The notes beneath the pieces were generated by a model. It did not search any database. It saw only the letters and a list, made by a program, of their open reading frames with translations, and was not told the DNA's origin. The position numbers and the translations under genes are program-made. Shown piece after piece: positions 43,196 through 61,694 of a stretch of DNA of 64,000 nt (position 1 is its first letter; each line of letters opens with the position of its first letter). The stretch is from Escherichia phage EP1. The DNA lies in the sequence record OR892555.1; one strand, 5' to 3'.

Positions 43196-43271
43196 TGGAG
43201 CGTCGAAAGGGAGTCGAACCCTCATAATCCTGTTTTGCAGACAGGTACATAGCCATTTCTGTCATCGACGC
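43196..43271 (-). tRNA. tRNA-Cys (anticodon GCA)
   Basis: Acceptor halves 43200-43206/43265-43271 pair; T-arm AAGGG-AGTCGAA-CCCTC (reverse-complement view); anticodon loop CUGCAAA; CCA encoded. Confidence 0.7.
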
Positions 43272-43277
43272 ATTAAT

Positions 43278-43369
43278 TGGAGGAAGATACCAGACTTGAA
43301 CTGGTACGCCGATTTCTCGGTTACTGACAGTTTAGCAAACTGTCCCCTTACCTTTAGGGTTAATCTTCC
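43278..43369 (-). tRNA. tRNA-Ser (anticodon GCU), long variable arm
   Basis: 92 nt; acceptor GGAAGAT/ATCTTCC; anticodon stem ACAGT/ACTGT with loop UUGCUAA. Confidence 0.7.
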
Positions 43370-43371
43370 AA

Positions 43372-44103
43372 TTATTTATTCAAGGCATCCTTCATTTCTG
43401 GAGTTGCAATTGAATCAATCACGCCAGATTTACAGGAATCATCAAACCAGTCTGGTAAGATACCTGCAAGGAAACCATTAATATTTGTTTTCAAGTAATC
43501 AGCAATCAAAGCCGCTTCATCTGCAATCATCTGAGCCACTTCATTAGCATAGGCAGTAATCTTTGCCATACCATCATTAATCGCTGTAACAGCTTGTGTA
43601 GCGAGGTCAGAGATGGTTGCTAGTCCTTTATCAATTGCATCCTGTAAGTCGCTTAGAACGCTGTTTACGGCATCTATAGAGGTATTAATCAAATCCATAG
43701 CCTTGTTACCGTATTCAGTAGCAACTCCCATGATTCCACTAAACGGTGTACAACCAACTTGTTCACCTGCTGCTCCCATAACATTAGAGTAACCTTTAGC
43801 TACTTGCATACGTTGTGAAAACTCATCTACAGACTTCTGTCCATATTGAGTCAGTGTGTTAGTTGTCGTTGTAGTGCTTCCAAGGCTAGTTGAGAAGCTA
43901 CTTAACAAGGCTGTAGTCAAACCAGCAGCAATAAGTTTATCTTTTACTGTAGGGTCTGATACCGAGCTAATAGAGCTTACTAATGAAGTAGAAGCGGCAA
44001 CTGTACCACCAAGAACTGCTGCACCAGTAATAAGAGGGTTAGAGAACCCGTTACCGGATTTAAGGAGACTGAAAATCTCTTTACCTTGTCCTGTCATCTC
44101 TTT
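43372..44103 (-). CDS. Ser/Thr/Ala-rich protein embedded in the tRNA array
   Basis: ORF trimmed to MKEMTGQ so it does not overlap the adjacent tRNA; low-complexity S/T-rich centre. Confidence 0.4.
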   Translation of the reverse strand, partial: KEMTGQGKEIFSLLKSGNGFSNPLITGAAVLGGTVAASTSLVSSISSVSDPTVKDKLIAAGLTTALLSSFSTSLGSTTTTTNTLTQYGQKSVDEFSQRMQVAKGYSNVMGAAGEQVGCTPFSGIMGVATEYGNKAMDLINTSIDAVNSVLSDLQDAIDKGLATISDLATQAVTAINDGMAKITAYANEVAQMIADEAALIADYLKTNINGFLAGILPDWFDDSCKSGVIDSIATPEMKDALNK

Positions 44104-44122
44104 CATTATGCACCTATAAAAT

Positions 44123-44199
44123 TGGTAGCCCATCGGGATTTGAACCCTGTTCTCATGTTTTTCAGACACGCGCTTTAACCATATAAGCTAATTGAGCTA
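44123..44199 (-). tRNA. tRNA, tentative Phe (anticodon GAA), atypical T-stem and acceptor/D-arm linker
   Basis: T-loop ATTTGAA with 3-bp GGG/CCC stem; anticodon loop CUGAAAA; acceptor TAGCTCA/TGGGCTA pairs with one G-U. Confidence 0.45.
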
Positions 44200-44206
44200 T
44201 TAAAAT

Positions 44207-44283
44207 TGGGGTGACCTACGGGAATCGAACCCGTATAGACCATGTTCACAGCATGGGTCATTATCCATTTATGATAAGGCCAC
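44207..44283 (-). tRNA. tRNA-His (anticodon GUG)
   Basis: T-arm ACGGG-AATCGAA-CCCGT; anticodon stem CCATG/CATGG with loop CUGUGAA; D-stem TCAT/ATGA. Confidence 0.7.
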
Positions 44284-44314
44284 ATGTAAGGACTCTCGTA
44301 AGAACCCTTAGAGG

Positions 44315-44390
44315 TGGCAGCAGCGTAAGGATTTGAACCTTAATCTTTCAGCTTCAGAGGCTGGAGCATTGCCAGTTATGCTACACTGCT
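44315..44390 (-). tRNA. tRNA-Gln (anticodon CUG)
   Basis: T-arm TAAGG-ATTTGAA-CCTTA; anticodon loop CUCUGAA; D-stem GCAT/ATGC. Confidence 0.65.
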
Positions 44391-44397
44391 ATTAATT

Positions 44398-44468
44398 TGG
44401 TACTCCATATCGGATTCGAACCGATACATAACACAGATTTTAAGTCTGGCCTCTCTGCCAATTGGAGT
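44398..44468 (-). tRNA. tRNA-like gene, anticodon loop reads UAA (Leu-type) but D-arm appears truncated
   Basis: Perfect T-arm ATCGG-ATTCGAA-CCGAT and 6-bp acceptor; only about 10 nt available for the D-arm. Confidence 0.4.
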
Positions 44469-44478
44469 AATGGAGCAT

Positions 44479-44554
44479 TGGCGGGGGATGTTGGAATTGA
44501 ACCAACTTCTTCGATTTCAAAGACCGAGGTTTTAACCTTGTAAACTAATCCCCT
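44479..44554 (-). tRNA. tRNA-Gln (anticodon UUG)
   Basis: T-arm GTTGG-AATTGAA-CCAAC; anticodon loop CUUUGAA; D-stem GTTT/AAAC. Confidence 0.6.
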
Positions 44555-44562
44555 TTAAATCT

Positions 44563-45120
44563 TTACTTTCTTAGTGGATGAATAAAGAATGCCAACATAA
44601 TTCTTTCCCTTGAGAATGCTCTTTCTTCTGGGACAACACTTTTAAGTTTCCATCCAACATAAATTCTCCAGTAAAACTGTTTACCAAAGACTTTAATTGA
44701 TGGGATAAAAGCGAATAATCCCCAAGCATTCCTATTCCACATCAGGAGATAACCTGTCTGATTATCTTCAGGGTTAGAACTTACGTTGATATTACCTTTC
44801 CACTTAGTAACATCTTTTACATCTCTTCCTAATACATGGTAAGAGAAGTTATAAGCTTTGTTTCTCCAGAGCCACCCAACTCTCTGCATATAAACACCAA
44901 GCTTACCAATCTTTCTAATCTTAGCCCATCGCTCAACGTGACCTTTGTCACCGTCAATTGGGTTATCATAAGTTTCCATCCATCTGAATCCAAAAGGTAG
45001 ATGGCCTTTCTTCTCACTGTAGAATGGAACAACAAAAGGTGCTAAGATTACTGCTAAGATTGCTGCAAATGGCTCTAGCAAAGCTAGGAAAATCCATGAA
45101 GCATACTTCAAATATCTCAT
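44563..45120 (-). CDS. membrane protein embedded in the tRNA array
   Basis: ORF trimmed to MRYLKYAS to avoid tRNA overlap; N-terminal TM segment ASWIFLALLEPFAAILAVILAPFVV. Confidence 0.4.
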   Translation of the reverse strand: MRYLKYASWIFLALLEPFAAILAVILAPFVVPFYSEKKGHLPFGFRWMETYDNPIDGDKGHVERWAKIRKIGKLGVYMQRVGWLWRNKAYNFSYHVLGRDVKDVTKWKGNINVSSNPEDNQTGYLLMWNRNAWGLFAFIPSIKVFGKQFYWRIYVGWKLKSVVPEERAFSRERIMLAFFIHPLRK

Positions 45121-45140
45121 TTTAAATAGCCTCTTTAAAT

Positions 45141-45216
45141 TGGTGCAGAATAAGGGATTCGAACCCCTATTAACAGCTTCGTAGACTGTTGCTCTATCCA
45201 TTTGAACTAATCCTGC
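45141..45216 (-). tRNA. tRNA-Arg (anticodon ACG)
   Basis: T-arm AAGGG-ATTCGAA-CCCCT; anticodon loop CUACGAA. Confidence 0.6.
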
Positions 45217-45330
45217 TTCCCTACGAGAACACCATACAGTTTTTCACAAACTTTGTTTTTACGTCTGTTTAGGTATGACGCTCTAAACTTTTTTGCGATG
45301 GAGTTATTGCTCATAGTGCTCTCCTCAAAT

Positions 45331-45408
45331 TGGTGTTCCAAGACGGATTCGAACCGTCACTAATACAAGGTTTGAGCTTGCATCCTCTGCCAATTGGGAT
45401 ACTGGAAC
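45331..45408 (-). tRNA. tRNA with anticodon CAA (Leu-type) but short variable region
   Basis: Well-formed cloverleaf in reverse complement (acceptor GTTCCAG/TTGGAAC, D-loop AATTGGCAG, T-loop TTCGAAT); anticodon loop CUCAAAC; 78 nt. Confidence 0.55.
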
Positions 45409-45410
45409 AT

Positions 45411-45485
45411 TGGTACTCGCTGAAGGAATTGAACCTTCTTTACCAACTTGTAAGGATGGGGCTTTACCGTATAAACTAAGCGAGT
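45411..45485 (-). tRNA. tRNA-Val (anticodon UAC)
   Basis: Acceptor ACTCGCT/AGCGAGT perfect; T-arm GAAGG-AATTGAA-CCTTC; anticodon loop CUUACAA. Confidence 0.65.
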
Positions 45486-45490
45486 ATGAA

Positions 45491-45578
45491 AAGAGGTCTG
45501 AAGTTGTGCCGCTAACTCAACTCCGTGGAATTTGTTACGGTCTTCAGTTGACTCAAGCGGTCTTTCACTCGACCTCTG
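45491..45578. ncRNA. structured element with acceptor-like terminal stem but no T-loop (candidate small RNA or degenerate tRNA)
   Basis: AGAGGTC (45492-45498) pairs with GACCTCT (45571-45577); internal hairpin CTGAAG...CTTCAG; fills a tRNA-sized gap in the array. Confidence 0.3.
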
Positions 45579-45581
45579 AAA

Positions 45582-45658
45582 TGGTGCTGCTCACAGGACT
45601 CGAACCTGCATTTCCATCCTTACAAGGGATGTGTAATAGCCAATTATACGAAAGCAGC
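45582..45658 (-). tRNA. tRNA-Thr (anticodon UGU)
   Basis: T-arm ACAGG-ACTCGAA-CCTGC; anticodon stem CATCC/GGATG with loop CUUGUAA. Confidence 0.7.
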
Positions 45659-45664
45659 ATTGTT

Positions 45665-45739
45665 TGGAGCATCCAGAGGGAATCGAACCCTCAACCTCAG
45701 TTTGGAAGACTGTAATTTTCCCGTTTAAACTATGGATGC
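45665..45739 (-). tRNA. tRNA-Gly (anticodon UCC)
   Basis: Acceptor GCATCCA/TGGATGC perfect; T-arm GAGGG-AATCGAA-CCCTC; anticodon loop CUUCCAA. Confidence 0.65.
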
Positions 45740-45745
45740 ACTAAT

Positions 45746-45821
45746 TGGTGGAGAAGCAGGGAATTGAACCCTGTACTTAAGTTTGCAAAACTTATGTTTT
45801 AACCATGTAAACTACATCCCC
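45746..45821 (-). tRNA. tRNA-Ala (anticodon UGC)
   Basis: T-arm CAGGG-AATTGAA-CCCTG; anticodon stem TAAGT/ACTTA with loop UUUGCAA. Confidence 0.65.
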
Positions 45822-45827
45822 AATGTT

Positions 45828-45903
45828 TGGTACAGGTGGAGGGAATTGAACCCATCATCTTACTGATTAAGAGTCAGCCGCATAACCATTTTGCTACACC
45901 TGC
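45828..45903 (-). tRNA. tRNA-Lys (anticodon CUU), tentative
   Basis: T-loop AATTGAA with GGG/CCC stem; anticodon loop CUCUUAA; acceptor ACAGGTG/CACCTGC. Confidence 0.55.
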
Positions 45904-45910
45904 ATTAATT

Positions 45911-45988
45911 TGGTAGGAGACAAGGGATTCGAACCCTCAAACACCAACTTCTAAGGATGGTAGGTTTACCAATTACCGTCAATCTCCC
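45911..45988 (-). tRNA. tRNA with anticodon UAG (Leu-type) but short variable region, structure partly unresolved
   Basis: T-arm AAGGG-ATTCGAA-CCCTC; acceptor with two G-U pairs; anticodon loop CUUAGAA; D-loop AATTGGTAA. Confidence 0.45.
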
Positions 45989-46052
45989 ATTAAATCTTTG
46001 TAGAGAACTGCTAAGACGCCAAAGCAACAATGGTATCAAATGCCTTAACAAT

Positions 46053-46080
46053 TCTCTAAAAAGACCTAACTGGTCTTTGC
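46053..46080 (-). terminator. hairpin, possible minus-strand terminator inside the tRNA array (weak)
   Basis: AAAGACC-taact-GGTCTTT stem followed by short U-run on the minus strand. Confidence 0.3.
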
Positions 46081-46229
46081 ATAGTCTTGTTTAATCCGGT
46101 GACTATAACCTTTGGAGAGCTTGATATTATCTCTTCTCCGTGACACCTACTAGGTGCTTTGTTGTGCGTGTACGACAATACACGAGGGAAACCGAACGCT
46201 GTACCAGAGCGTGGGCTTAAATCTCATTA

Positions 46230-46319
46230 GGCGGTAGATAAAGGAGTCGAACCCTCACCGTATCACTACAATGGCAATTGTTTTCAAGACAATTTGGCTT
46301 CCATTAGCCGCTATCTACC
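46230..46319 (-). tRNA. tRNA-Ser (anticodon UGA), long variable arm
   Basis: Acceptor GGTAGAT/ATCTACC; anticodon stem ATTGT/ACAAT with loop CUUGAAA; about 87 nt. Confidence 0.65.
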
Positions 46320-46332
46320 CCTAATAAGACTG

Positions 46333-46737
46333 TTAAACCTCTAACAGTCCTGCATGAACTTTCCTATGACAGTTAGAACACAGTACAACACATTTTCTAA
46401 CTTCTCTCTTAATAGTCCCTCTAGAGTAAGTCTTTAAATTGCTAGGTTCAAAGTCTTTTTCATTTGGGTCTAAATGGTGGAAGTCTAATGCTACTGGTTC
46501 AGATTCACCACAAACTCTGCATTTGCAGATTCTTTTGTATCGGTTAAGAAACTCTCTGTTTCTTTTTCTGTCAGCTACCGCCCTAATTTTCCTTTTAGCT
46601 TTATAAGTTGGGTCTTCTTGATACTTCTTAGAAGAGTATTTGGATTTGCAATCTTTGCATACTGACTGGTATCCATTACCACGCTTATGAAAACAACTTA
46701 AAGGTTTTTCTTGTGAGCATTTTCTACAAAGTTTCAT
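46333..46737 (-). CDS. HNH homing endonuclease inserted in the tRNA array
   Basis: Cys-rich zinc-binding N-terminus; HNH core DFHHLDPNEK ... CSNCHRKVH. Confidence 0.65.
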   Translation of the reverse strand: MKLCRKCSQEKPLSCFHKRGNGYQSVCKDCKSKYSSKKYQEDPTYKAKRKIRAVADRKRNREFLNRYKRICKCRVCGESEPVALDFHHLDPNEKDFEPSNLKTYSRGTIKREVRKCVVLCSNCHRKVHAGLLEV

Positions 46738-46751
46738 ACAAGTACCTATTC

Positions 46752-46822
46752 TGGCAGGGGTGTAGAGATTCGAACTCTAATCAAGAATTTTGGAGACTCT
46801 ATTGCTGCCTTAGCTCACCCCT
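46752..46822 (-). tRNA. tRNA-Trp (anticodon CCA), tentative
   Basis: Acceptor AGGGGTG/CACCCCT perfect; T-arm TAGAG-ATTCGAA-CTCTA; anticodon loop CUCCAAA; short D-arm. Confidence 0.6.
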
Positions 46823-46993
46823 ATTAACACTATAATTCGAAGCTTACCGTATTGTCACAACACTGTCAAGCCTCTTCTCAGATTATTTACATGTTCTGGA
46901 AAACATGAGATACAGACCACCTCCTTATGAAGTTGACTCATCTGAATCAACACGGAGACCCGCTAAGGTCGTCTAAGTAATCTGCTAACTAAT

Positions 46994-47070
46994 TGGCACA
47001 CCCTACAGGGCTCGAACCTGTAACTCAGTGCTTAGAAGGCACTTGCTCTATCCAATTGAACTAAGGGTGC
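46994..47070 (-). tRNA. tRNA-Arg (anticodon UCU)
   Basis: T-arm ACAGG-GCTCGAA-CCTGT; anticodon stem AGTGC/GCACT with loop CUUCUAA. Confidence 0.7.
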
Positions 47071-47320
47071 ATTCTTATCTTTAAAGGCTCTCTTAGAAAA
47101 CCCTTAAAGATGCCCACCTTATTAATCATACCGTGGGCGAGTACGCCAAATTCTTTGATGAGGGGTTGGAAGACCTCACTGGTGTTTAGCCTATTAAGCT
47201 ACTGCCAGAAAAACATTATCGTTTGCATTTATTTTAGTTTGCAAAAATAGACGCTACGCTAACGAAAACTAAGGTTACTATAAAGTGGTCACATCTGAAT
47301 GTCAACAACTTTATCGAATT

Positions 47321-47396
47321 TGGTAGTGGTAGCAGGAATCGAACCTGCGATGTTCGGTTATCAGCCGAGTGTTATGACCGTCTTAACTATACCACC
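47321..47396 (-). tRNA. tRNA-Ile (anticodon GAU)
   Basis: T-arm GCAGG-AATCGAA-CCTGC; anticodon loop CUGAUAA. Confidence 0.6.
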
Positions 47397-47398
47397 AT

Positions 47399-47475
47399 TG
47401 GAGGTTCAGATGGGATTCGAACCCACATTCATAGGGCTTATGAAACCCTTGCATTACCTTATCTGCGACTGAACC
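47399..47475 (-). tRNA. tRNA-Met (anticodon CAU), G-C-rich anticodon stem
   Basis: Acceptor GGTTCAG/CTGAACC perfect; T-arm ATGGG-ATTCGAA-CCCAC; anticodon stem AGGGC/ACCCT with loop UUCAUAA. Confidence 0.65.
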
Positions 47476-47554
47476 ATAATAAGTTGCCCTTTGGAGAAGA
47501 ACTATTGAGTGGGTGTTTCCAGCCGCGCAGGTGTTCTTCAGTTAAGGGCGAATT
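47476..47554. ncRNA. structured element with acceptor-like terminal stem but no T-loop (candidate small RNA)
   Basis: TTGCCCT (about 47484-47490) pairs with AGGGCGA (about 47544-47550); shares a TTCAGTT motif with the element at 45491. Confidence 0.25.
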
Positions 47555-47630
47555 TGGTAGGAGTGGAGGGATTCGAACCCGTCGCCTGTCAGATTAAAAG
47601 TCTGCCGCATCACCATTCTGCTACACTCCC
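47555..47630 (-). tRNA. tRNA-Lys (anticodon UUU)
   Basis: T-loop ATTCGAA with GGG/CCC stem; anticodon stem TCAGA/TCTGC with loop CUUUUAA. Confidence 0.65.
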
Positions 47631-47775
47631 ATTAAATCATCTTTGCAGTAACCTACGCAAACCTTGCTAAAGGGTTTGTAGAGTCATTTCCTATTAAGCT
47701 AATCTAGAATCATGCTAAGGAAATTCATCGGCACTCATGGGACGACATTTAGCTCCATAAGCCACTGCAAAGAGG

Positions 47776-47907
47776 ATTACCAGACCGTTGTTTTATCTTA
47801 AGTGCTCCCATTACACCAACACGCCGTAACGTGTGAAGGAATCGAACCTTCGCCTTTTCTTTACCAGAGAAATAGATTGTTTAATACTTGCTGTAAACGG
47901 TCTTCTG
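47776..47907 (-). ncRNA. tRNA-like RNA lacking a canonical acceptor stem, enclosed by a long-range stem (candidate Y-RNA-like or pseudo-tRNA)
   Basis: Minus strand reads AGACCGTT...[anticodon-like arm TTTCT-CTGGTAA-AGAAA][T-arm GAAGG-TTCGATT-CCTTC][hairpin ACACG-TTACGG-CGTGT]...AACGGTCT; ends pair over 8 bp. Confidence 0.4.
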
Positions 47908-47919
47908 TAAATTTGTTGA

Positions 47920-47993
47920 GCCAGACCAAGTTTTAAATTATTCAAATTAATTGGCTTGAAATTTTTAAGTTGGCTTGCTGAATTTGGTCTTCT
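47920..47993 (-). repeat. hairpin spacer module, copy B1 (CAGAAGACCAA ... TTGGTCTGG)
   Basis: AGACCAA (47922-47928) complementary to TTGGTCT (47983-47989); conserved flanks shared with copies at 47779, 48388, 48544. Confidence 0.5.
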
Positions 47994-48055
47994 GCTCCTT
48001 TAAAGAATACTCGTAAGAACTCTTTAAGGGATGGGCTAAAAAGCCCTCTCAAATT

Positions 48056-48133
48056 TGGCGGTTACGAAGGGATTCGAACCCTCATCATCTCCCGTGACAG
48101 GGGAGTATTTTAACCAGATTAAACTACATAACC
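48056..48133 (-). tRNA. tRNA-Asp (anticodon GUC)
   Basis: T-arm AAGGG-ATTCGAA-CCCTC; anticodon stem CTCCC/GGGAG with loop CUGUCAC. Confidence 0.7.
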
Positions 48134-48139
48134 TTTGTT

Positions 48140-48227
48140 TGGTGCGCCGTGAAGGAGTCGAACCTACCGAGTCATAATGACAAGTGATTTACAGTCACCA
48201 CCGCTTCCATCTACGGGATAACGACGC
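48140..48227 (-). tRNA. tRNA-Tyr (anticodon GUA), long variable arm
   Basis: 88 nt; T-arm GAAGG-AGTCGAA-CCTAC; anticodon loop CUGUAAA. Confidence 0.65.
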
Positions 48228-48297
48228 ATTTTATTCTATTCAGGCTAAGGACTTGCACCTTACAAATCGGTGAGCATTACGCTTCTCTCCCAAATCT

Positions 48298-48374
48298 TGG
48301 CGGTGAGTTAGGGATTCGAACCCTATACCATTCGGTTAACAGCCGACCGCACATGCCTTATGTGCTTCCTCACC
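48298..48374 (-). tRNA. tRNA-Asn (anticodon GUU)
   Basis: T-arm TAGGG-ATTCGAA-CCCTA; anticodon loop CUGUUAA. Confidence 0.7.
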
Positions 48375-48387
48375 ATGTTTAGTATTG

Positions 48388-48449
48388 CCAGACCGTATCT
48401 TTTCATTTTTTCCTATAAAAATTTTGAGATTGCTGTAAACGGTCTTCTG
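48388..48449 (-). repeat. hairpin spacer module, copy A2 (CAGAAGACCGT ... ACGGTCTGG)
   Basis: AGACCGT (48390-48396) complementary to ACGGTCT (48439-48445); lies between tRNA-Asn and the CAU tRNA. Confidence 0.5.
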
Positions 48450-48455
48450 CAAATT

Positions 48456-48532
48456 TGGAGGCGGGTGTTGGAGTCGAACCAACCGTTACCATGCTAATGA
48501 GACATGTGAGACACCCTTTCTCTATACCCGCG
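48456..48532 (-). tRNA. tRNA with anticodon CAU (Met, fMet or Ile-lysidine type)
   Basis: T-arm GTTGG-AGTCGAA-CCAAC; D-stem GAGA/TCTC; anticodon loop CUCAUUA; position 1-72 mismatched. Confidence 0.6.
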
Positions 48533-48543
48533 ATTCTTAATGA

Positions 48544-48607
48544 CCAGACCAAGTTTTATTTTCTATAAGCGAAGAAAGTTTTTTAACTTGCTGAATTTGG
48601 TCTTCTG
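48544..48607 (-). repeat. hairpin spacer module, copy B2 (CAGAAGACCAA ... TTGGTCTGG)
   Basis: AGACCAA (48546-48552) complementary to TTGGTCT (48597-48603). Confidence 0.5.
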
Positions 48608-48614
48608 TCAAATT

Positions 48615-48689
48615 TGGAGTCGTAGACGGGATTCGAACCCGCGAGCAACTGATTGAAGGTCAGGTGGCTAACCATTTGCCTTCTACGAC
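48615..48689 (-). tRNA. tRNA-Glu (anticodon UUC), tentative (C at position 33)
   Basis: Acceptor GTCGTAG/CTACGAC perfect; T-arm ACGGG-ATTCGAA-CCCGC; anticodon loop CCUUCAA. Confidence 0.55.
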
Positions 48690-48696
48690 ATTAATT

Positions 48697-48773
48697 TGGT
48701 CTCCGTTGAGGGAGTTGAACCCTCGACCCCTTGCTCCCAAAGCAAGTGCTCTGCCAAACTGAGCTAAACGGAA
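48697..48773 (-). tRNA. tRNA-Pro (anticodon UGG)
   Basis: T-arm GAGGG-AGTTGAA-CCCTC; anticodon stem CTTGC/GCAAG with loop UUUGGGA. Confidence 0.7.
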
Positions 48774-48940: not shown

Positions 48941-50356
48941 TTACCAGATGTAACGGTCAATCATTACTGCTTTGAGCATTACGCTGATTGGGTCAAACTT
49001 CTCACCACCAAGCAGAGCCTTTAAAGTGGCTGGAGAGAAACCTGATACCATCGCTACTCCGTTATCATTTACGGATACTTCGCAGTGACCATTACGGTTT
49101 GCTAAGTACCAGAATACCAGTTGTGGCATCTCATATCCAGCTTTTTCATACTTACTACGAATTACTTCGAAGTTTGTACGACCATTTGCCCCGTCAACCT
49201 GATTAAACTCCATATCAGAGAAGATAATAAGCTTACTTGGCATTGCTGCCTGAGTCAAGTTATTTCTTACACCAATTTCAAGAATACGGTCAAATGCTGC
49301 TTGTAGGTTTGTAGAACCATACTCAACATGACTCATAATCTGACGATGACGATTCTGTAAAGTGCCACTCAGGGTGATAAAGTGAGGTCTGTCTGAGTAA
49401 ATCATTAACTCGTCTTTAAAACAACCTGTATTGCGTTCTGAGACGTATAACGCCAGAGACACACCAATATCAAGAGCGGTTACTGAACCAAATGTTTCCC
49501 AAGTCATAGAGCATGATACATCTGTCATACAAAGGATGTTTTCACCATCAGCCATCCAGTTTGGTAGTGCTTTCCACTGTTCATTAGCAACTTGTGCTTT
49601 ACCACGCTGAACAGATTTAAGAACATCATAAGGGTATACAGCACCAGCATTAATCTTCGTCTCGCCCTTAGATAGAGCTTCAACGTAAGCTGCATAACGT
49701 TCACCATCTTTCTTACTGAACAGTTTTTGATAACGTGCAGCAGCCAGTGAAGGAATCTTACTGTAGTCAATCTCGCCAAAGTTATTTGTAGAGATTTTCT
49801 GTTCAACGGTGTCAGATAAAGCTGACAGCAGTGTACGGTACTCTTTCTCACTCAAGTTTGCAAATTTACAGAAACGTTTTACAAACTGCTTGTGGCGTGG
49901 TTTTACTCGTGGTAACCACTTAGCTGCTAAACATGCTGTATCAGGGTCTAACAAAGCTTCTTCTAAATGCTTGAAAGCATCTGTCTCATAACGAGTACCT
50001 ACGAAGATTTTGAAGTCATCGAAACGACCTAATTCAGAAATCTTATCCATGATACGAAGAACTTGGAAAGAATCCAGAATGTTATCTTCGATTGCTTGTA
50101 AGAGGACAGTTCGGAAAGCTTTACGCTCACCCATACCTTCTCGTACATCTCGCATATGCAGTAAAATACGAACTGCTACATCAACATCCTCACGCAAAGC
50201 TTTGTAGAACAAGTCTGGGAGAATCTCTACATTGTTACGGCTTGAACCAGCAGCTTTGTAGAAGTCTACCAAGGCAGACATTGATGATGTATGGTTAACA
50301 GCACCATTTTCAGTTCGCCCTGCATTGAGGTGCGAATGCTTAAATAAATCGCTCAT
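48941..50356 (-). CDS. Ro60-like protein: helical TROVE-like N-terminal region plus C-terminal vWA domain with MIDAS motif
   Basis: C-terminal MTDVSCSMTWE (DxSxS) ... GSTNLQAAF ... LVFWYLANRNGHCEVSVNDNGVAMVSGFS parallels the Ro60 vWA domain; 471 aa; directly upstream of the tRNA array on the same strand. Confidence 0.6.
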   Translation of the reverse strand: MSDLFKHSHLNAGRTENGAVNHTSSMSALVDFYKAAGSSRNNVEILPDLFYKALREDVDVAVRILLHMRDVREGMGERKAFRTVLLQAIEDNILDSFQVLRIMDKISELGRFDDFKIFVGTRYETDAFKHLEEALLDPDTACLAAKWLPRVKPRHKQFVKRFCKFANLSEKEYRTLLSALSDTVEQKISTNNFGEIDYSKIPSLAAARYQKLFSKKDGERYAAYVEALSKGETKINAGAVYPYDVLKSVQRGKAQVANEQWKALPNWMADGENILCMTDVSCSMTWETFGSVTALDIGVSLALYVSERNTGCFKDELMIYSDRPHFITLSGTLQNRHRQIMSHVEYGSTNLQAAFDRILEIGVRNNLTQAAMPSKLIIFSDMEFNQVDGANGRTNFEVIRSKYEKAGYEMPQLVFWYLANRNGHCEVSVNDNGVAMVSGFSPATLKALLGGEKFDPISVMLKAVMIDRYIW

Positions 50357-61166: not shown

Positions 61167-61694
61167 TTAAAGATTCGCTATCGTTTCGTCAAGTGAATTT
61201 TCTAAGTTTTTTAAAGATTGTTCGTAAAGTCTAATCCCTCTAGTTAATGCCTCCCCCAACGTAATTTTAAATTTAGTTGTTGGATAGTCACTTGTAAAGA
61301 GATTTTCAACTTCATAGAGTGGGTGTTGTTGGTTACCCGTTCCCATAGCATACATCCCTGTATAGTGGATTGCAATAAAAAGATTATGAGACTTTATAGA
61401 GCGTTCATAGGCCATTTTGTAGCGGTTTAGCTCGTTTTTAGTCGCCTTGATAGCCATTTCATGAATCTCTGCGACGATAGCCATATAATCCGGCAGAATC
61501 ATTGCAACAGCTTTCATAAAGTTGTCAGCGGTCATAATTTTCTGATTTGGGCGATGGATGTAATACTTTTTATCTTCCCCTTTCGTGATGACTGCAAAAG
61601 TTTTATCTTTCAGGGTGAATTCAAAGGTATCTTTGACAGGTTTTTTCATTACATCTTTTGAGCGAATAGTGTTGATTGCTGTAAACTTGTTCAT
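61167..61694 (-). CDS. hypothetical protein (175 aa)
   Basis: ORF track; conserved leader. Confidence 0.4.
   Translation of the reverse strand: MNKFTAINTIRSKDVMKKPVKDTFEFTLKDKTFAVITKGEDKKYYIHRPNQKIMTADNFMKAVAMILPDYMAIVAEIHEMAIKATKNELNRYKMAYERSIKSHNLFIAIHYTGMYAMGTGNQQHPLYEVENLFTSDYPTTKFKITLGEALTRGIRLYEQSLKNLENSLDETIANL

What the first reader, a model, noticed from the sequence alone, without database searches (positions are those of the whole stretch)
47779..48607. Four copies of a hairpin-forming spacer module between tRNAs
In the spacers 3' of tRNA-Asp, the CAU tRNA and tRNA-Glu, the minus strand carries CAGAAGACC(GTT or AAA)TWCAGCAAG ... (AACGGTCTGG or CTTGGTCTGG). The ends of each copy are complementary over 7-8 bp and enclose 45-105 nt. 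There are two sequence variants with two copies each (ACCGT type: plus-strand 47781-47902 and 48390-48445; ACCAA type: 47922-47989 and 48546-48603). Base pairing is preserved between variants by compensating changes, which argues for a structural RNA role such as processing sites, small RNAs, or protein-binding stems.
Basis: seen in the sequence. Interest (0 to 1): 0.7.

Follow-up and report, generated by a model that had tools for sequence, protein, structure and literature searches.

The report
Y-RNA-like RNAs in phage tRNA cluster
Four conserved, stem-closed small RNAs sit between the tRNA genes of a FelixO1-type phage; they look like the unidentified "Y RNA" partners of the Ro60-like protein encoded just upstream, whose counterpart in phage Bas63 was recently reported to counter a bacterial defence.

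Summary
Four modules lie on the minus strand at 48541-48610, 48385-48452, 47918-47997 and 47777-47910.

Each module has the same anatomy:
- a 4-bp lower helix, different in every copy;
- an internal loop, AGA on the 5' side and G on the 3' side;
- a 7-8 bp upper helix (AGACC../..GGUCU);
- a single-stranded U(W)CAGCAA;
- a variable interior.

The interior of module D is a tRNA-like body: a T arm, a loop-closed acceptor hairpin and a D arm. This is the layout of bacterial YrlA Y RNAs.

The helices covary strongly within the FelixO1 group and in relatives whose neighbouring protein is 53-63% identical.

The gene directly upstream (48941-50356, DUF2828+DUF7788) models as a full-length Ro60/TROVE-vWA ring.

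A covariance model of the modules, and a simple pattern, find the same motif next to DUF2828 genes in about 65 distant phage loci. Hits are almost only on the gene's strand (96 vs 6) and mostly within 600 nt of the gene. The phage T5 tRNA cluster, where no DUF2828-like gene is annotated, has none.

Best reading: these are Y-RNA-like RNAs released from the tRNA transcript and bound by the phage Ro60-like protein. Binding and expression are untested. They match neither the Rfam YrlA model nor the GNCGAA motif, so this is a new variant of a known kind.

The parts
48541..48610 (-). Module A (70 nt): lower helix UGAC/GUCA, loop AGA/G, upper helix AGACCAA/UUGGUCU, single-stranded AUUCAGCAA, apical hairpins. 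It starts 4 nt after the CCA of tRNA-Glu and ends 8 nt before tRNA-Met.
   Evidence: Sequence. The MFE fold gives exactly this structure. CM R1 scores 65.8 bits, E 1e-11. Orthologues are present in Ounavirinae loci.
48385..48452 (-). Module B (68 nt): lower helix UUGC/GCAA, loop AGA/G, upper helix AGACCGU/ACGGUCU, UUACAGCAA, apical hairpin AUUUUU-AUAGGA-AAAAAU. It lies between tRNA-Met(CAU) and tRNA-Asn.
   Evidence: z = -3.3; 73.3 bits. In orthologues the lower helix is UUGC/GCAA or UUAC/GUAA, a compensatory change. The apical hairpin also covaries, e.g. CUUUU..AAAAG.
47918..47997 (-). Module C (80 nt): lower helix GAGC/GCUC, loop AGA/G, upper helix AGACCAA/UUGGUCU, AUUCAGCAA, apical hairpin UUUCAA..UUGAA.
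   Evidence: 81.1 bits. Orthologues show GAGC/GUUC and GGGC/GCUC (G-U pairs) and GGGC/GUCC (compensatory).
47777..47910 (-). Module D (134 nt): lower helix UUAC/GUAA, loop AGA/G, upper helix AGACCGUU/AACGGUCU, UACAGCAA, then a tRNA-like body.
   Evidence: 48.6 bits, E 1e-7. The Rfam tRNA model hits the interior at 30.6 bits.
47856..47872 (-). Module D: V / anticodon-like arm UUUCU-CUGGUAA-AGAAA. The loop is not conserved in relatives.
47835..47851 (-). Module D: T arm GAAGG-UUCGAUU-CCUUC.
   Evidence: The T loop is invariant in the orthologues.
47819..47834 (-). Module D: acceptor-like hairpin closed by a loop (ACACG-UUACGG-CGUGU), with no free end and no CCA.
   Evidence: Relatives have ACUCG/CGAGU or ACCCUUC/GAAGGGU. 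Four of its pairs show compensatory changes in 4-8 sequences.
47802..47816 (-). Module D: D arm GUGU-AAUGGGA-GCAC, preceded by U8-G9-like UG.
48941..50356 (-). Gene for a 471-aa Ro60-like protein (DUF2828 + DUF7788, i.e. a HEAT-repeat ring plus a vWA domain with a DxSxS MIDAS motif). This is the proposed protein partner.
   Evidence: Pfam hits. AF2 model pLDDT 88.5. The top 11 Foldseek PDB hits are all Ro60/TROVE over about 510-550 alignment columns, E 1e-8 to 1e-6, TM 0.51-0.64 for most (D. radiodurans Rsr 0.35). PHROG 850 'RNA-binding protein'. A full-length copy is present in all 251 related phage records.
48801..48922 (-). Two sigma-70-like promoters (TTGACA-17-TAATAT and TTGACA-18-TAAAGT) between the Ro60-like gene and tRNA-Pro. 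They are the presumed start of the tRNA + module transcript.
   Evidence: Consensus scan only. No terminator-like site was found on the minus strand between them and module D.

Best explanation
The four modules are genes for small non-coding RNAs of the Y-RNA type.

Proposed mechanism:
- They are transcribed with the tRNAs from the early promoters just downstream of the Ro60-like gene (inferred).
- They are released when RNase P and the tRNA 3'-end nucleases process the flanking tRNAs. Each module fills its spacer to within 3-10 nt of the neighbouring tRNA ends (shown for the geometry, inferred for the cleavage).
- Each RNA folds with its 5' and 3' ends paired into a two-part stem carrying a conserved asymmetric internal loop. 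This is followed by a conserved single-stranded U(W)CAGCAA and a variable apical part (structure shown by covariation).
- This conserved stem, loop and motif is proposed to be the binding site of the phage Ro60-like ring protein encoded next door (inferred from gene-RNA linkage across phages and from analogy with Ro60-Y RNA).
- Module D adds a tRNA-like body (T arm, closed acceptor hairpin, D arm), as in bacterial YrlA. This could dock tRNA-recognising enzymes or an exoribonuclease onto the particle (speculative).
- The resulting RNP would act in RNA surveillance or counter-defence during infection. The likely Bas63 orthologue, gp130, was reported to counter the ppl defence system.
For: (1) Structure.
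- All four modules fold (MFE) into the same lower helix, loop and upper helix, with the CAGCAA motif unpaired.
- On 20 distinct stems, 96.4% of cells pair and 9/11 pairs change on both sides. The covariation score is 0.72 against 0.25 in shuffles (0/500) and at most 0.17 when slid.
- The lower helices of the four paralogues are all different yet all complementary.
- Within orthologues, changes are compensatory (UUGC/GCAA to UUAC/GUAA) or give G-U only on the tRNA-sense strand.

(2) tRNA mimicry.
- Module D has a T arm, a loop-closed acceptor hairpin and a D arm in the YrlA order.
- 16/26 pairs show compensatory changes.
- YrlA's layout is described in PMC4201824.

(3) Protein partner.
- The adjacent 471-aa protein is a Ro60/TROVE-vWA fold.
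- Bas63 gp130 is described as Ro60-like and as lying directly upstream of the tRNAs, and it counters ppl (PMC11482910).

(4) Linkage beyond this phage.
- Relatives whose protein is 53-63% identical keep the architecture with different helices.
- CM R1 gives 29 hits at E<=1 in 65 distant DUF2828 loci. All are on the gene's strand (p about 2e-9) and 20 lie within 600 nt of the gene (p about 5e-14).
- A simple pattern gives 96 hits on the gene strand against 6 on the other strand. T-loops occur in 17 against 0.
- Loci without any tRNA still carry the motif beside the gene.
- Long distant modules fold as tRNA-like bodies inside the same closing stem.

(5) Specificity.
- The T5 tRNA cluster (35 kb, no DUF2828-like gene annotated there) gives no hit.
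- The rest of the window gives none of note.
Against: - No expression, end-mapping or binding data exist for these RNAs.
- The conserved motif is not the known Ro-binding motif. There is no GNCGAA(N)G or GGUCCGA, only a loosely similar CAGAAG.
- The Rfam YrlA model does not match, even at E<=10.
- Folding energies are barely better than shuffles for A, C and D (z = -0.8 to -1.4), so the case rests on covariation and context.
- In this phage the modules are separated from the gene by promoters and two tRNAs.
- In distant phages the motif sits just 3' of the gene, which would also fit a cis-acting 3' element.
- The non-FelixO1 rows of the stem alignment were picked by a scanner that required pairing, and the distant alignment was fitted to the model. 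Both inflate the 'percentage paired' figure, though not the strand and position biases.
- The protein's relation to Ro60 is by predicted fold only. Pfam TROVE did not hit, and the profile-vs-PDB E-value was 0.64.
Confidence: 0.65

Rival explanations
1. These are structured, stable small RNAs of the tRNA cluster that do not work through the neighbouring Ro60-like protein. Examples would be decoys or sponges for host tRNA-targeting nucleases, or 'stable RNAs of unknown function' like those annotated in the T5 tRNA region and known (from my memory) in T4. The linkage to DUF2828 would then only reflect a shared 'translation RNA island'.
For: T5 has eight annotated stable RNAs, some tRNA-like, among its tRNAs, and no DUF2828-like gene is annotated in that region. 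DUF2828 genes often sit beside tRNA arrays or tmRNA genes. There is no match to known Ro-binding motifs.
Against: The motif follows the DUF2828 gene even in loci with no tRNA at all (L068, L083, L088, L095). It usually lies within 600 nt of the gene on the same strand. The T5 cluster lacks the motif. The invariant stem/loop/motif shared by otherwise unrelated interiors points to one common binding partner.
Confidence: 0.15
2. These are cis-acting elements of the polycistronic pre-tRNA. The hairpins would guide or pace RNase E / RNase P / RNase III processing or folding of neighbouring tRNAs. The Ro60-like protein might chaperone the precursor, and the modules would not persist as separate RNAs.
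For: The modules fill tRNA spacers to within 3-10 nt of the tRNA ends. The spacers are AU-rich, as RNase E sites are. Ro60 is known to bind misfolded RNA precursors (PMC4201824 introduction).
Against: Most tRNA spacers in the same cluster are 2-8 nt long and need no such element. The helices of 4 + 7-8 bp are too short for RNase III (my knowledge). Module D and distant long modules keep a covarying tRNA-like body that serves no purpose in a cleavage signal. The motif also occurs beside DUF2828 genes with no tRNA nearby.
Confidence: 0.12
3. These are DNA-level elements: miniature inverted-repeat mobile elements, duplicated homing-endonuclease targets, or palindromic binding sites for a DNA-binding protein.
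For: There are terminal inverted repeats of 7-8 bp. HNH endonuclease genes lie in the tRNA cluster.
Against: Single-sided changes keep G-U pairs only on the tRNA-sense strand; they would be A-C mismatches in DNA or on the other strand. The hits show 96:6 strand asymmetry relative to a neighbouring gene. The copies sit at fixed orthologous positions across the genus, not in presence/absence scatter. The HNH insertion in mistaenkt lies elsewhere. Helices are replaced wholesale while unpaired motifs stay fixed.
Confidence: 0.03
4. These are decaying relics: duplicated spacer plus tRNA fragments (module D being the 3' half of one tRNA followed by the 5' half of the next) with no present function, or a circularly permuted tRNA gene.
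For: The interior of D scores 30.6 bits against the tRNA model. Its order (T arm, 3' acceptor strand, 5' acceptor strand, D arm) is what a tandem tRNA duplication with terminal deletions would give.
Against: The acceptor-like hairpin, the T and D arms and the closing stem are maintained by compensatory changes across genera and in distant phages. The acceptor is closed by a loop with no CCA. The anticodon-like loop is not conserved: it is 7 nt, 6 nt or lacks U33 in relatives, so it cannot be a decoding tRNA.
Confidence: 0.03

Closest known systems
Bacterial Y RNAs YrlA / YrlB (Salmonella Typhimurium rsr-yrlBA-rtcBA locus and relatives; Chen et al. 2014, PMC4201824; Rfam RF02553)
   Same: - The RNAs are encoded next to a Ro60-type gene on the same strand, with several per locus.
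- Size is about 70-135 nt.
- The 5' and 3' ends pair into a stem with a conserved motif near the 5' end.
- One member (module D) has the YrlA order: stem, V stem-loop, T arm, acceptor-like stem-loop, D arm, stem.
- The shorter members lack the tRNA-like body. I recall this also being true of YrlB; I did not check it.
   Different: - The partner protein is the DUF2828/DUF7788 family, related to TROVE only by predicted fold.
- The conserved motif is A-N-A loop / AG..CU helix / U(W)CAGCAA, not GNCGAA(N)G.
- The Rfam YrlA model gives no hit on the modules.
- The genes are embedded in tRNA spacers of a lytic phage, and no RtcB/RtcA was noticed beside them.
- Some distant members place the D, anticodon and T arms in normal tRNA order inside the stem.
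Phage Y-RNA-like RNAs Yrl1/Yrl2 of Thermus phage phiLo with phiRo60 (PMC12135203; PDB 9KOP, 9L5Y)
   Same: A phage-encoded Ro60 homologue has two or more adjacent Y-like RNAs with stem-bulge-stem architecture. phiRo60 is among the best structural matches of the window's protein.
   Different: phiLo Ro60 was found as a Ro60 homologue in UniProt, and its Yrls were identified partly through the conserved CGAA motif and lie upstream of the gene. Here the motif differs, the RNAs lie within a tRNA array, and binding has not been shown.
Metazoan Y RNAs bound by Ro60 (X. laevis Ro60-Y3 structure, PDB 1YVP)
   Same: The terminal stem carries a conserved bulged or internal-loop helix as the protein-binding site, and the rest of the RNA is variable.
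   Different: The sequence motif GGUCCGA/UUGAC with a bulged C is absent here. Metazoan Y RNAs have no tRNA-like domain, are made by Pol III and have a La-binding U tail.
Stable small RNAs of phage tRNA clusters (T5 RNAI, RNAIII, RNAIV, RNA1-3 'tRNA-like stable RNA with unknown functions'; T4 species 1 and 2 RNAs, from memory)
   Same: These are small non-tRNA RNAs co-encoded and co-processed with phage tRNAs, some tRNA-like, of unknown function (annotation in AY543070).
   Different: The T5 region gives no match to the module model and no DUF2828-like gene is annotated in it. No protein partner is known for the T5 and T4 RNAs.
Bas63 (Felixounavirus) gp130, Ro60-like anti-ppl protein (PhageMaP preprint, PMC11482910)
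   Same: This is very probably the orthologue of the window's 471-aa protein. It is Ro60-like by structure and lies directly upstream of the tRNA genes. The authors already guessed that Y RNAs exist there.
   Different: The authors suggested that some annotated tRNA genes might be the Y RNAs. The candidates found here are instead unannotated modules in the tRNA spacers. No RNA was identified or tested in that work.

Membership tests
Y RNA (functional class: Ro60-bound ncRNA) | Physical association with a Ro60 protein | not testable with these tools
   Needs RIP/CLIP or EMSA. Only genomic linkage was shown.
Y RNA (functional class) | 5' and 3' ends pair into a stem that carries a conserved bulge or internal loop | tested here: met
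   The stem is 4 bp + AGA/G loop + 7-8 bp in all four copies. Covariation is shown.
Y RNA (functional class) | Encoded adjacent to a Ro60-type gene (the bacterial/phage rule) | tested here: met
   The modules lie 331-1164 nt downstream of the Ro60-like gene on the same strand. The same linkage holds in distant phages, with all 29 CM hits on the gene strand and 20/29 within 600 nt of the gene.
Y RNA (functional class) | Known Ro-binding sequence motif (GGUCCGA in animals; GNCGAA(N)G / CGAA in bacteria and phiLo) | tested here: not met
   The modules read (G/A)CAGAAGACC. No CGAA is present. The motif definitions are from PMC4201824 and PMC12135203.
YrlA (Rfam RF02553) | Match to the curated covariance model | tested here: not met
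   No YrlA hit on the modules at E<=1 over 7 kb or at E<=10 over 421 nt. The only YrlA hit lies over tRNA-Phe/His at 21.5 bits against a gathering score of 69.
YrlA (architecture) | Order: stem, V stem-loop, T arm, acceptor-like stem-loop, D arm, stem | tested here: met
   Module D: V arm 47856-47872, T arm 47835-47851, acceptor-like hairpin 47819-47834, D arm 47802-47816. Modules A-C lack this body.
YrlA (architecture) | tRNA-type modifications (pseudouridine 55, dihydrouridine) and recognition by tRNA enzymes | not testable with these tools
   Requires RNA from infected cells.
tRNA (RF00005) | Cloverleaf with an open acceptor stem and a 3' CCA or discriminator end, a D arm 5' of the anticodon arm, and a conserved 7-nt anticodon loop | tested here: not met
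   The interior of D scores 30.6 bits (gathering score 29) only by skipping the D arm. The acceptor is loop-closed and the D arm follows the T arm. The anticodon-like loop varies in length and lacks U33 in relatives. ARAGORN does not call it.
Circularly permuted tRNA gene (red-alga type, from memory) | 3' half lies upstream of the 5' half; termini are processed to give a normal tRNA with a free acceptor end and a functional anticodon | tested here: not met
   The permuted order is present, but the acceptor strands are joined by a 6-8 nt loop that varies freely. There is no CCA, and the anticodon-like loop is not conserved.
Ro60 / TROVE-vWA protein (for the neighbouring gene) | HEAT-repeat ring plus a C-terminal vWA domain with a MIDAS motif | tested here: met
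   AF2 model pLDDT 88.5. The top 11 Foldseek PDB hits are all Ro60, aligned over the full length. DxSxS (D279, S281, S283) is invariant in 35 homologues.
Ro60 / TROVE-vWA protein | Sequence membership in Pfam TROVE (PF05731) | tested here: not met
   Pfam reports only DUF2828 and DUF7788. The profile-vs-PDB search reaches Ro60 only at E=0.64, over the MIDAS region.
MITE / inverted-repeat mobile element | Identical or near-identical copies at non-homologous sites, target-site duplications, strand-neutral inverted repeats | tested here: not met
   Copies sit at fixed orthologous spacers. G-U pairs occur on only one strand. Hits show a 96:6 strand bias.

The most novel reading that the evidence does not exclude
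The DUF2828 proteins and these AG-helix/UWCAGCAA RNAs form a widespread, previously unrecognised phage ribonucleoprotein. It would be a second, divergent Ro60-Y RNA system carried by many unrelated tailed phages, often as arrays of several RNAs, some of them tRNA mimics in at least two different topologies. Its job would be counter-defence. The particle would use the tRNA-like RNAs to engage host tRNA-directed or nucleic-acid-degrading immune effectors, or to recruit a host exoribonuclease. That would explain why loss of the Bas63 protein sensitises the phage to the ppl system.
Probability: 0.3. Interest if true: 0.85.

Novelty: new variant of a known kind. Interest (0 to 1): 0.66.

Why it matters
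- Ro60-Y RNA particles are known from animals, bacteria and a few phages, but their function in microbes is still poorly understood.
- The PhageMaP preprint reported that the Ro60-like protein of the FelixO1-type phage Bas63 counters a bacterial defence, and only guessed that Y RNAs might hide among the tRNA genes.
- This analysis names concrete RNA candidates and gives their structure and a conserved candidate binding motif.
- It also shows that the same RNA motif travels with DUF2828 genes in dozens of unrelated phage lineages.
- That turns a structural resemblance into a testable RNP: binding assays, motif mutants and module deletions in Bas63.
- It suggests a function for unannotated tRNA-cluster spacers, gives annotators a model to find these RNAs, and may bear on the old puzzle of 'stable RNAs of unknown function' in phage tRNA clusters.

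Tried and rejected
- Promoter or terminator reading of the modules. The consensus scan finds no promoter or terminator in them on the tRNA strand, and hand inspection found no consistent -35/-10 across copies.
- Rfam. No curated family covers the modules. The only overlap is a chance-level Dicty_Class_I hit on B (24.8 bits, E 0.32) and the tRNA hit inside D.
- Alternative register of the stem (CAG/CUG pairing with a 3-nt bulge). Rejected because relatives have CAU/CAA/CAC at that place while the AG../..CU register is kept.
- Homing-endonuclease target idea. Rejected.
- Sequence homology of the protein to solved structures. phmmer found nothing and the profile search gave only E=0.64 to Ro60. 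The link needed a fold search.
- A loose helix scanner without the A-N-A loop constraint gave about 20 background hits in the window, so it was tightened.
- KVP40-like Vibrio phage phi-pp2 (L045) and L046 gave only ambiguous candidates with the FelixO1-type loop geometry. The looser pattern finds some there.
- The weak fifth CM hit in the window (61633-61694) is the start of a coding sequence and was dismissed.
- I could not retrieve the Bas63 accession to confirm gp130 orthology directly. The orthology is inferred from genus membership and from the gene's universal presence upstream of the tRNAs.
Full report
**What the window is.** The region matches FelixO1-type myophages (Ounavirinae; 98.8% to Escherichia phage EcSzw-2, 94% to SUSP2). 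A cluster of at least 24 tRNA genes lies on the minus strand at 43196-48773. Rfam adds a tRNA-Glu at 48618-48689 and a weak tRNA-Tyr-like hit at 48145-48225 that ARAGORN misses.

**Checking the observation.**
- CAGAAGACC occurs exactly six times in 64 kb. Four of these are on the minus strand within 710 nt.
- Each is followed by GGTCTGG.
Outside the 7-8 bp helix there is a second 4-bp helix, different in each copy: A TGAC/GTCA, B TTGC/GCAA, C GAGC/GCTC, D TTAC/GTAA.
- The two helices are separated by a fixed asymmetric internal loop, AGA on the 5' side and a single G on the 3' side.
- Directly after the 5' strand of the upper helix comes a conserved U(W)CAGCAA.
- The full modules are 48541-48610, 48385-48452, 47918-47997 and 47777-47910.
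- Each starts 3-4 nt after the CCA of the preceding tRNA (A, B) or after the preceding module (D). A and B end 8-10 nt before the next tRNA.

**Structure.**
- ViennaRNA folds all four into the same closing structure, with the CAGCAA motif unpaired and one or more apical hairpins. Energies are only modestly better than shuffles (z = -0.8 to -3.3), as expected for AU-rich RNA.
- The real evidence is comparative. A scan of IMG/VR for the 5' motif alone returned about 30 FelixO1-group contigs with the same three or four modules at the same positions. The ends are invariant and the interiors variable.
- Within these orthologues, the lower helix of B is either UUGC/GCAA or UUAC/GUAA.
- The lower helix of C shows GAGC/GUUC, GGGC/GCUC and GGGC/GUCC.
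- Single changes in the upper helix (AGGCC, AGACU..CCGA..CAAG) all keep G-U pairs on the tRNA-sense strand.

**More distant Ounavirinae-like phages.** I found these through the neighbouring protein (63%, 56% and 53% identity). They keep the architecture with other helix sequences:
- AGUAUC/GAUACU, AGACUA/UAGUCU, AGACUCU/AGAGUCU and AGUGUC/GACACU;
- GGACUGU/ACAGUCC, GGAUUC/GAAUCC and GGACUC/GAGUCC.

On 20 distinct stems:
- 96.4% of cells pair;
- 9 of 11 pairs change on both sides;
- the covariation score is 0.72, against 0.25 in shuffles (0 of 500 reach it) and at most 0.17 for slid registers.

Caveat: the non-FelixO1 rows were selected by a scanner that required pairing.

**Module D is a tRNA mimic.** Its interior reads, 5' to 3':
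- an anticodon-like or V hairpin;
- a perfect T arm (GAAGG-UUCGAUU-CCUUC);
- an acceptor-like helix closed by a loop (ACACG-UUACGG-CGUGU);
- a U-G dinucleotide;
- a D arm (GUGU-AAUGGGA-GCAC).

In relatives the acceptor-like helix becomes ACUCG/CGAGU or ACCCUUC/GAAGGGU. RNAalifold finds 16 of 26 pairs with compensatory changes. The anticodon-like loop is not conserved, and there is no free acceptor end or CCA. It is therefore neither a tRNA nor a permuted tRNA gene. The order (stem, V, T arm, acceptor-like stem-loop, D arm, stem) is exactly that described for bacterial YrlA Y RNAs (PMC4201824).

**The neighbour.**
- The gene ending 331 nt upstream of module A (48941-50356, minus strand, 471 aa) carries DUF2828 and DUF7788 and an invariant DxSxS motif.
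- Sequence searches against the PDB find nothing convincing.
- An AlphaFold2 model from 35 homologues is confident (pLDDT 88.5).
- Its eleven best Foldseek matches in the PDB are all Ro60/TROVE proteins, aligned over the full length. They include Thermus phage phiLo Ro60, Xenopus and human Ro60 and Deinococcus Rsr (E 1e-8 to 1e-6; TM 0.51-0.64 for most). The next matches are isolated vWA domains at E>1e-3.
- PHROGs labels the family 'RNA-binding protein'.
- A full-length copy is present in all 251 related phage records.
- A 2024 preprint on the Felixounavirus Bas63 reports that gp130 is Ro60-like, lies directly upstream of the tRNA genes and counters the ppl defence system. The authors only speculate that 'some tRNA genes are possibly Y RNAs' (PMC11482910). 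No paper I could find identifies the RNAs.

**Is the RNA tied to the protein?** I built a covariance model (R1) from 28 short modules. I fetched 80 loci encoding DUF2828 relatives from IMG/VR, 65 of them only 38-45% identical and from very different phages.

Results with R1:
- In the window, R1 finds the four modules (E 1e-15 to 1e-7) and nothing else of note.
- In the 65 distant loci (769 kb), it gives 29 hits at E<=1.
- All 29 are on the strand of the DUF2828 gene (p about 2e-9).
- 20 lie within 600 nt of the gene, mostly just downstream (p about 5e-14).
- The alignments share the core A-AG-N5-WUWCAGCAAAC...N5'-CUG.
- The upper helix is 99% paired, with 6 of 7 pairs changed on both sides, and the second pair is invariantly G-C as in the window. 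This alignment was fitted to the model.

Results with a plain pattern (RG-N5, 2-4 nt, CAGCAA, then the complement of the 7-mer within 230 nt) in 68 distant loci:
- 96 hits on the gene strand against 6 on the other strand;
- 17 against 0 of these hits contain a T-loop;
- 40 of the 65 IMG/VR loci have at least one hit.

Further points:
- Several loci have the motif beside the gene and no tRNA gene at all, so the link is to the gene, not to tRNA arrays.
- Long distant modules fold as T arm, closed acceptor hairpin and D arm inside the same closing stem. In one case the D, anticodon and T arms are in normal order with the closing stem replacing the acceptor stem.
- A 143-kb phage (L044) carries five tandem modules right after the gene, three of them tRNA-like.
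- As a negative control, the T5 tRNA region (35 kb, 24 tRNAs plus annotated stable RNAs, no DUF2828-like gene annotated) gives no hit.

**Interpretation.** The best-supported reading is that these are Y-RNA-like non-coding RNAs. They would be co-transcribed with the tRNAs, released by tRNA processing, and bound through their conserved stem, loop and motif by the phage's Ro60-like ring protein.
- Shown: the conserved secondary structure, the tRNA mimicry of D, the Ro60 fold of the neighbour, and the strand- and position-specific genomic coupling across phages.
- Inferred: transcription, processing, stability, binding, and any role in counter-defence.
- Counting against membership in the known families: the absence of the GNCGAA/GGUCCGA motif, no hit to Rfam YrlA, and a protein that is TROVE-like only by predicted fold.
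- I therefore file it as a new variant of the Ro60-Y RNA kind, not as YrlA.

**Rivals.**
- A stable RNA unrelated to the protein (0.15).
- A cis-acting pre-tRNA processing or folding element (0.12).
- DNA-level repeats or mobile elements (0.03).
- tRNA relics or permuted tRNA genes (0.03).

The last two are contradicted by the strand-specific G-U pairs, the strand bias and the compensatory evolution. The HNH insertion seen in phage mistaenkt lies between tRNA-Asp and tRNA-Asn, not in a module.

**Verdict.** What is there is more specific and more interesting than 'processing stems': a candidate partner-RNA family for a divergent, widespread phage Ro60-like protein that was recently linked to anti-defence. 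Interest 0.66; new variant of a known kind.

Noticed in passing
window 47191-47226 (minus strand); context 47140-47320: There is a tmRNA-like tag reading frame, UAAAU-GCA AAC GAU AAU GUU UUU CUG GCA GUA GCU UAA UAG (ANDNVFLAVA**). It lies downstream of a strong promoter-like site (47305-47277), between tRNA-Ile and tRNA-Arg. Rfam tmRNA_permuted scores 38.7 bits (gathering score 47, E about 1e-6), but the tRNA-like part of that alignment borrows the T arm of tRNA-Ile, and ARAGORN calls no tmRNA. Relatives keep the frame with a synonymous GAU>GAC change and a UAA>UGA stop change. This may be a divergent phage tmRNA or only its mRNA-like part.
   Followed up: partly
L046, L099, L108, L112, L122 (DUF2828 loci): Canonical tmRNA genes or tags (ANDAFYGEMALAA, ANDNNAYGAYALAA, EEVELAVAA and others) lie within a few kb of DUF2828 genes in several unrelated phages. 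The Ro60-like gene therefore seems to belong to a 'translation RNA island' of tRNAs, tmRNA and Y-like RNAs.
   Followed up: partly
window 47631-47776 (minus strand): A 146-nt element lies directly after module D. It is closed by a 15-bp stem (arms 47635-47649 / 47764-47778, 93% complementary) and contains UAGCUUAAUAGG, the same string that ends the tmRNA-like tag frame. I found it only in the closest relatives (SUSP2, mistaenkt). I did not fold it or analyse it further.
   Followed up: partly
L044 10570-10685: This is a tRNA-like gene (acceptor stem, D arm, anticodon arm with GUC, T arm, CCA) with the module hairpin AACUUCU-UAG-AGAAGUU plus UUACAGCAU inserted between the D arm and the anticodon arm. 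It is in effect a circular permutation of a tRNA-like module, which hints at how these RNAs and tRNAs interconvert.
   Followed up: no
L128 (phage T5, AY543070 30284-33949 and 40848-41566): The T5 tRNA region carries eight annotated 'stable RNAs with unknown functions', several called tRNA-like. They do not match the module model, but they are the obvious historical parallel and might repay the same kind of analysis.
   Followed up: partly
window 46335-46735 (minus strand): A small ORF with a Cys-rich N-terminus lies inside the tRNA cluster between a weak tRNA hit (46755-46822) and tRNA-Ser. From its sequence I took it to be an HNH-type homing endonuclease; I ran no family search. Related phages carry HNH genes at other positions in the cluster.
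   Followed up: no
window 48003-48029, 44288-44314, 43445-43471, 47077-47111: Repeated short hairpins built on CUUUAAAG...CUUUAAAG (repeat finder families D12 and I15) occur in several tRNA spacers. One sits between tRNA-Asp and module C. Their function is unknown.
   Followed up: no
window 48618-48689 and 48145-48225 (minus strand): tRNA-Glu(UUC), with an unusual C at position 33 by my reading, is missed by ARAGORN but scores 53.7 bits with Rfam. A tRNA-Tyr(GUA)-like gene scores only 22.8 bits and is called a pseudo-tRNA in the Felix O1 genome paper.
   Followed up: no
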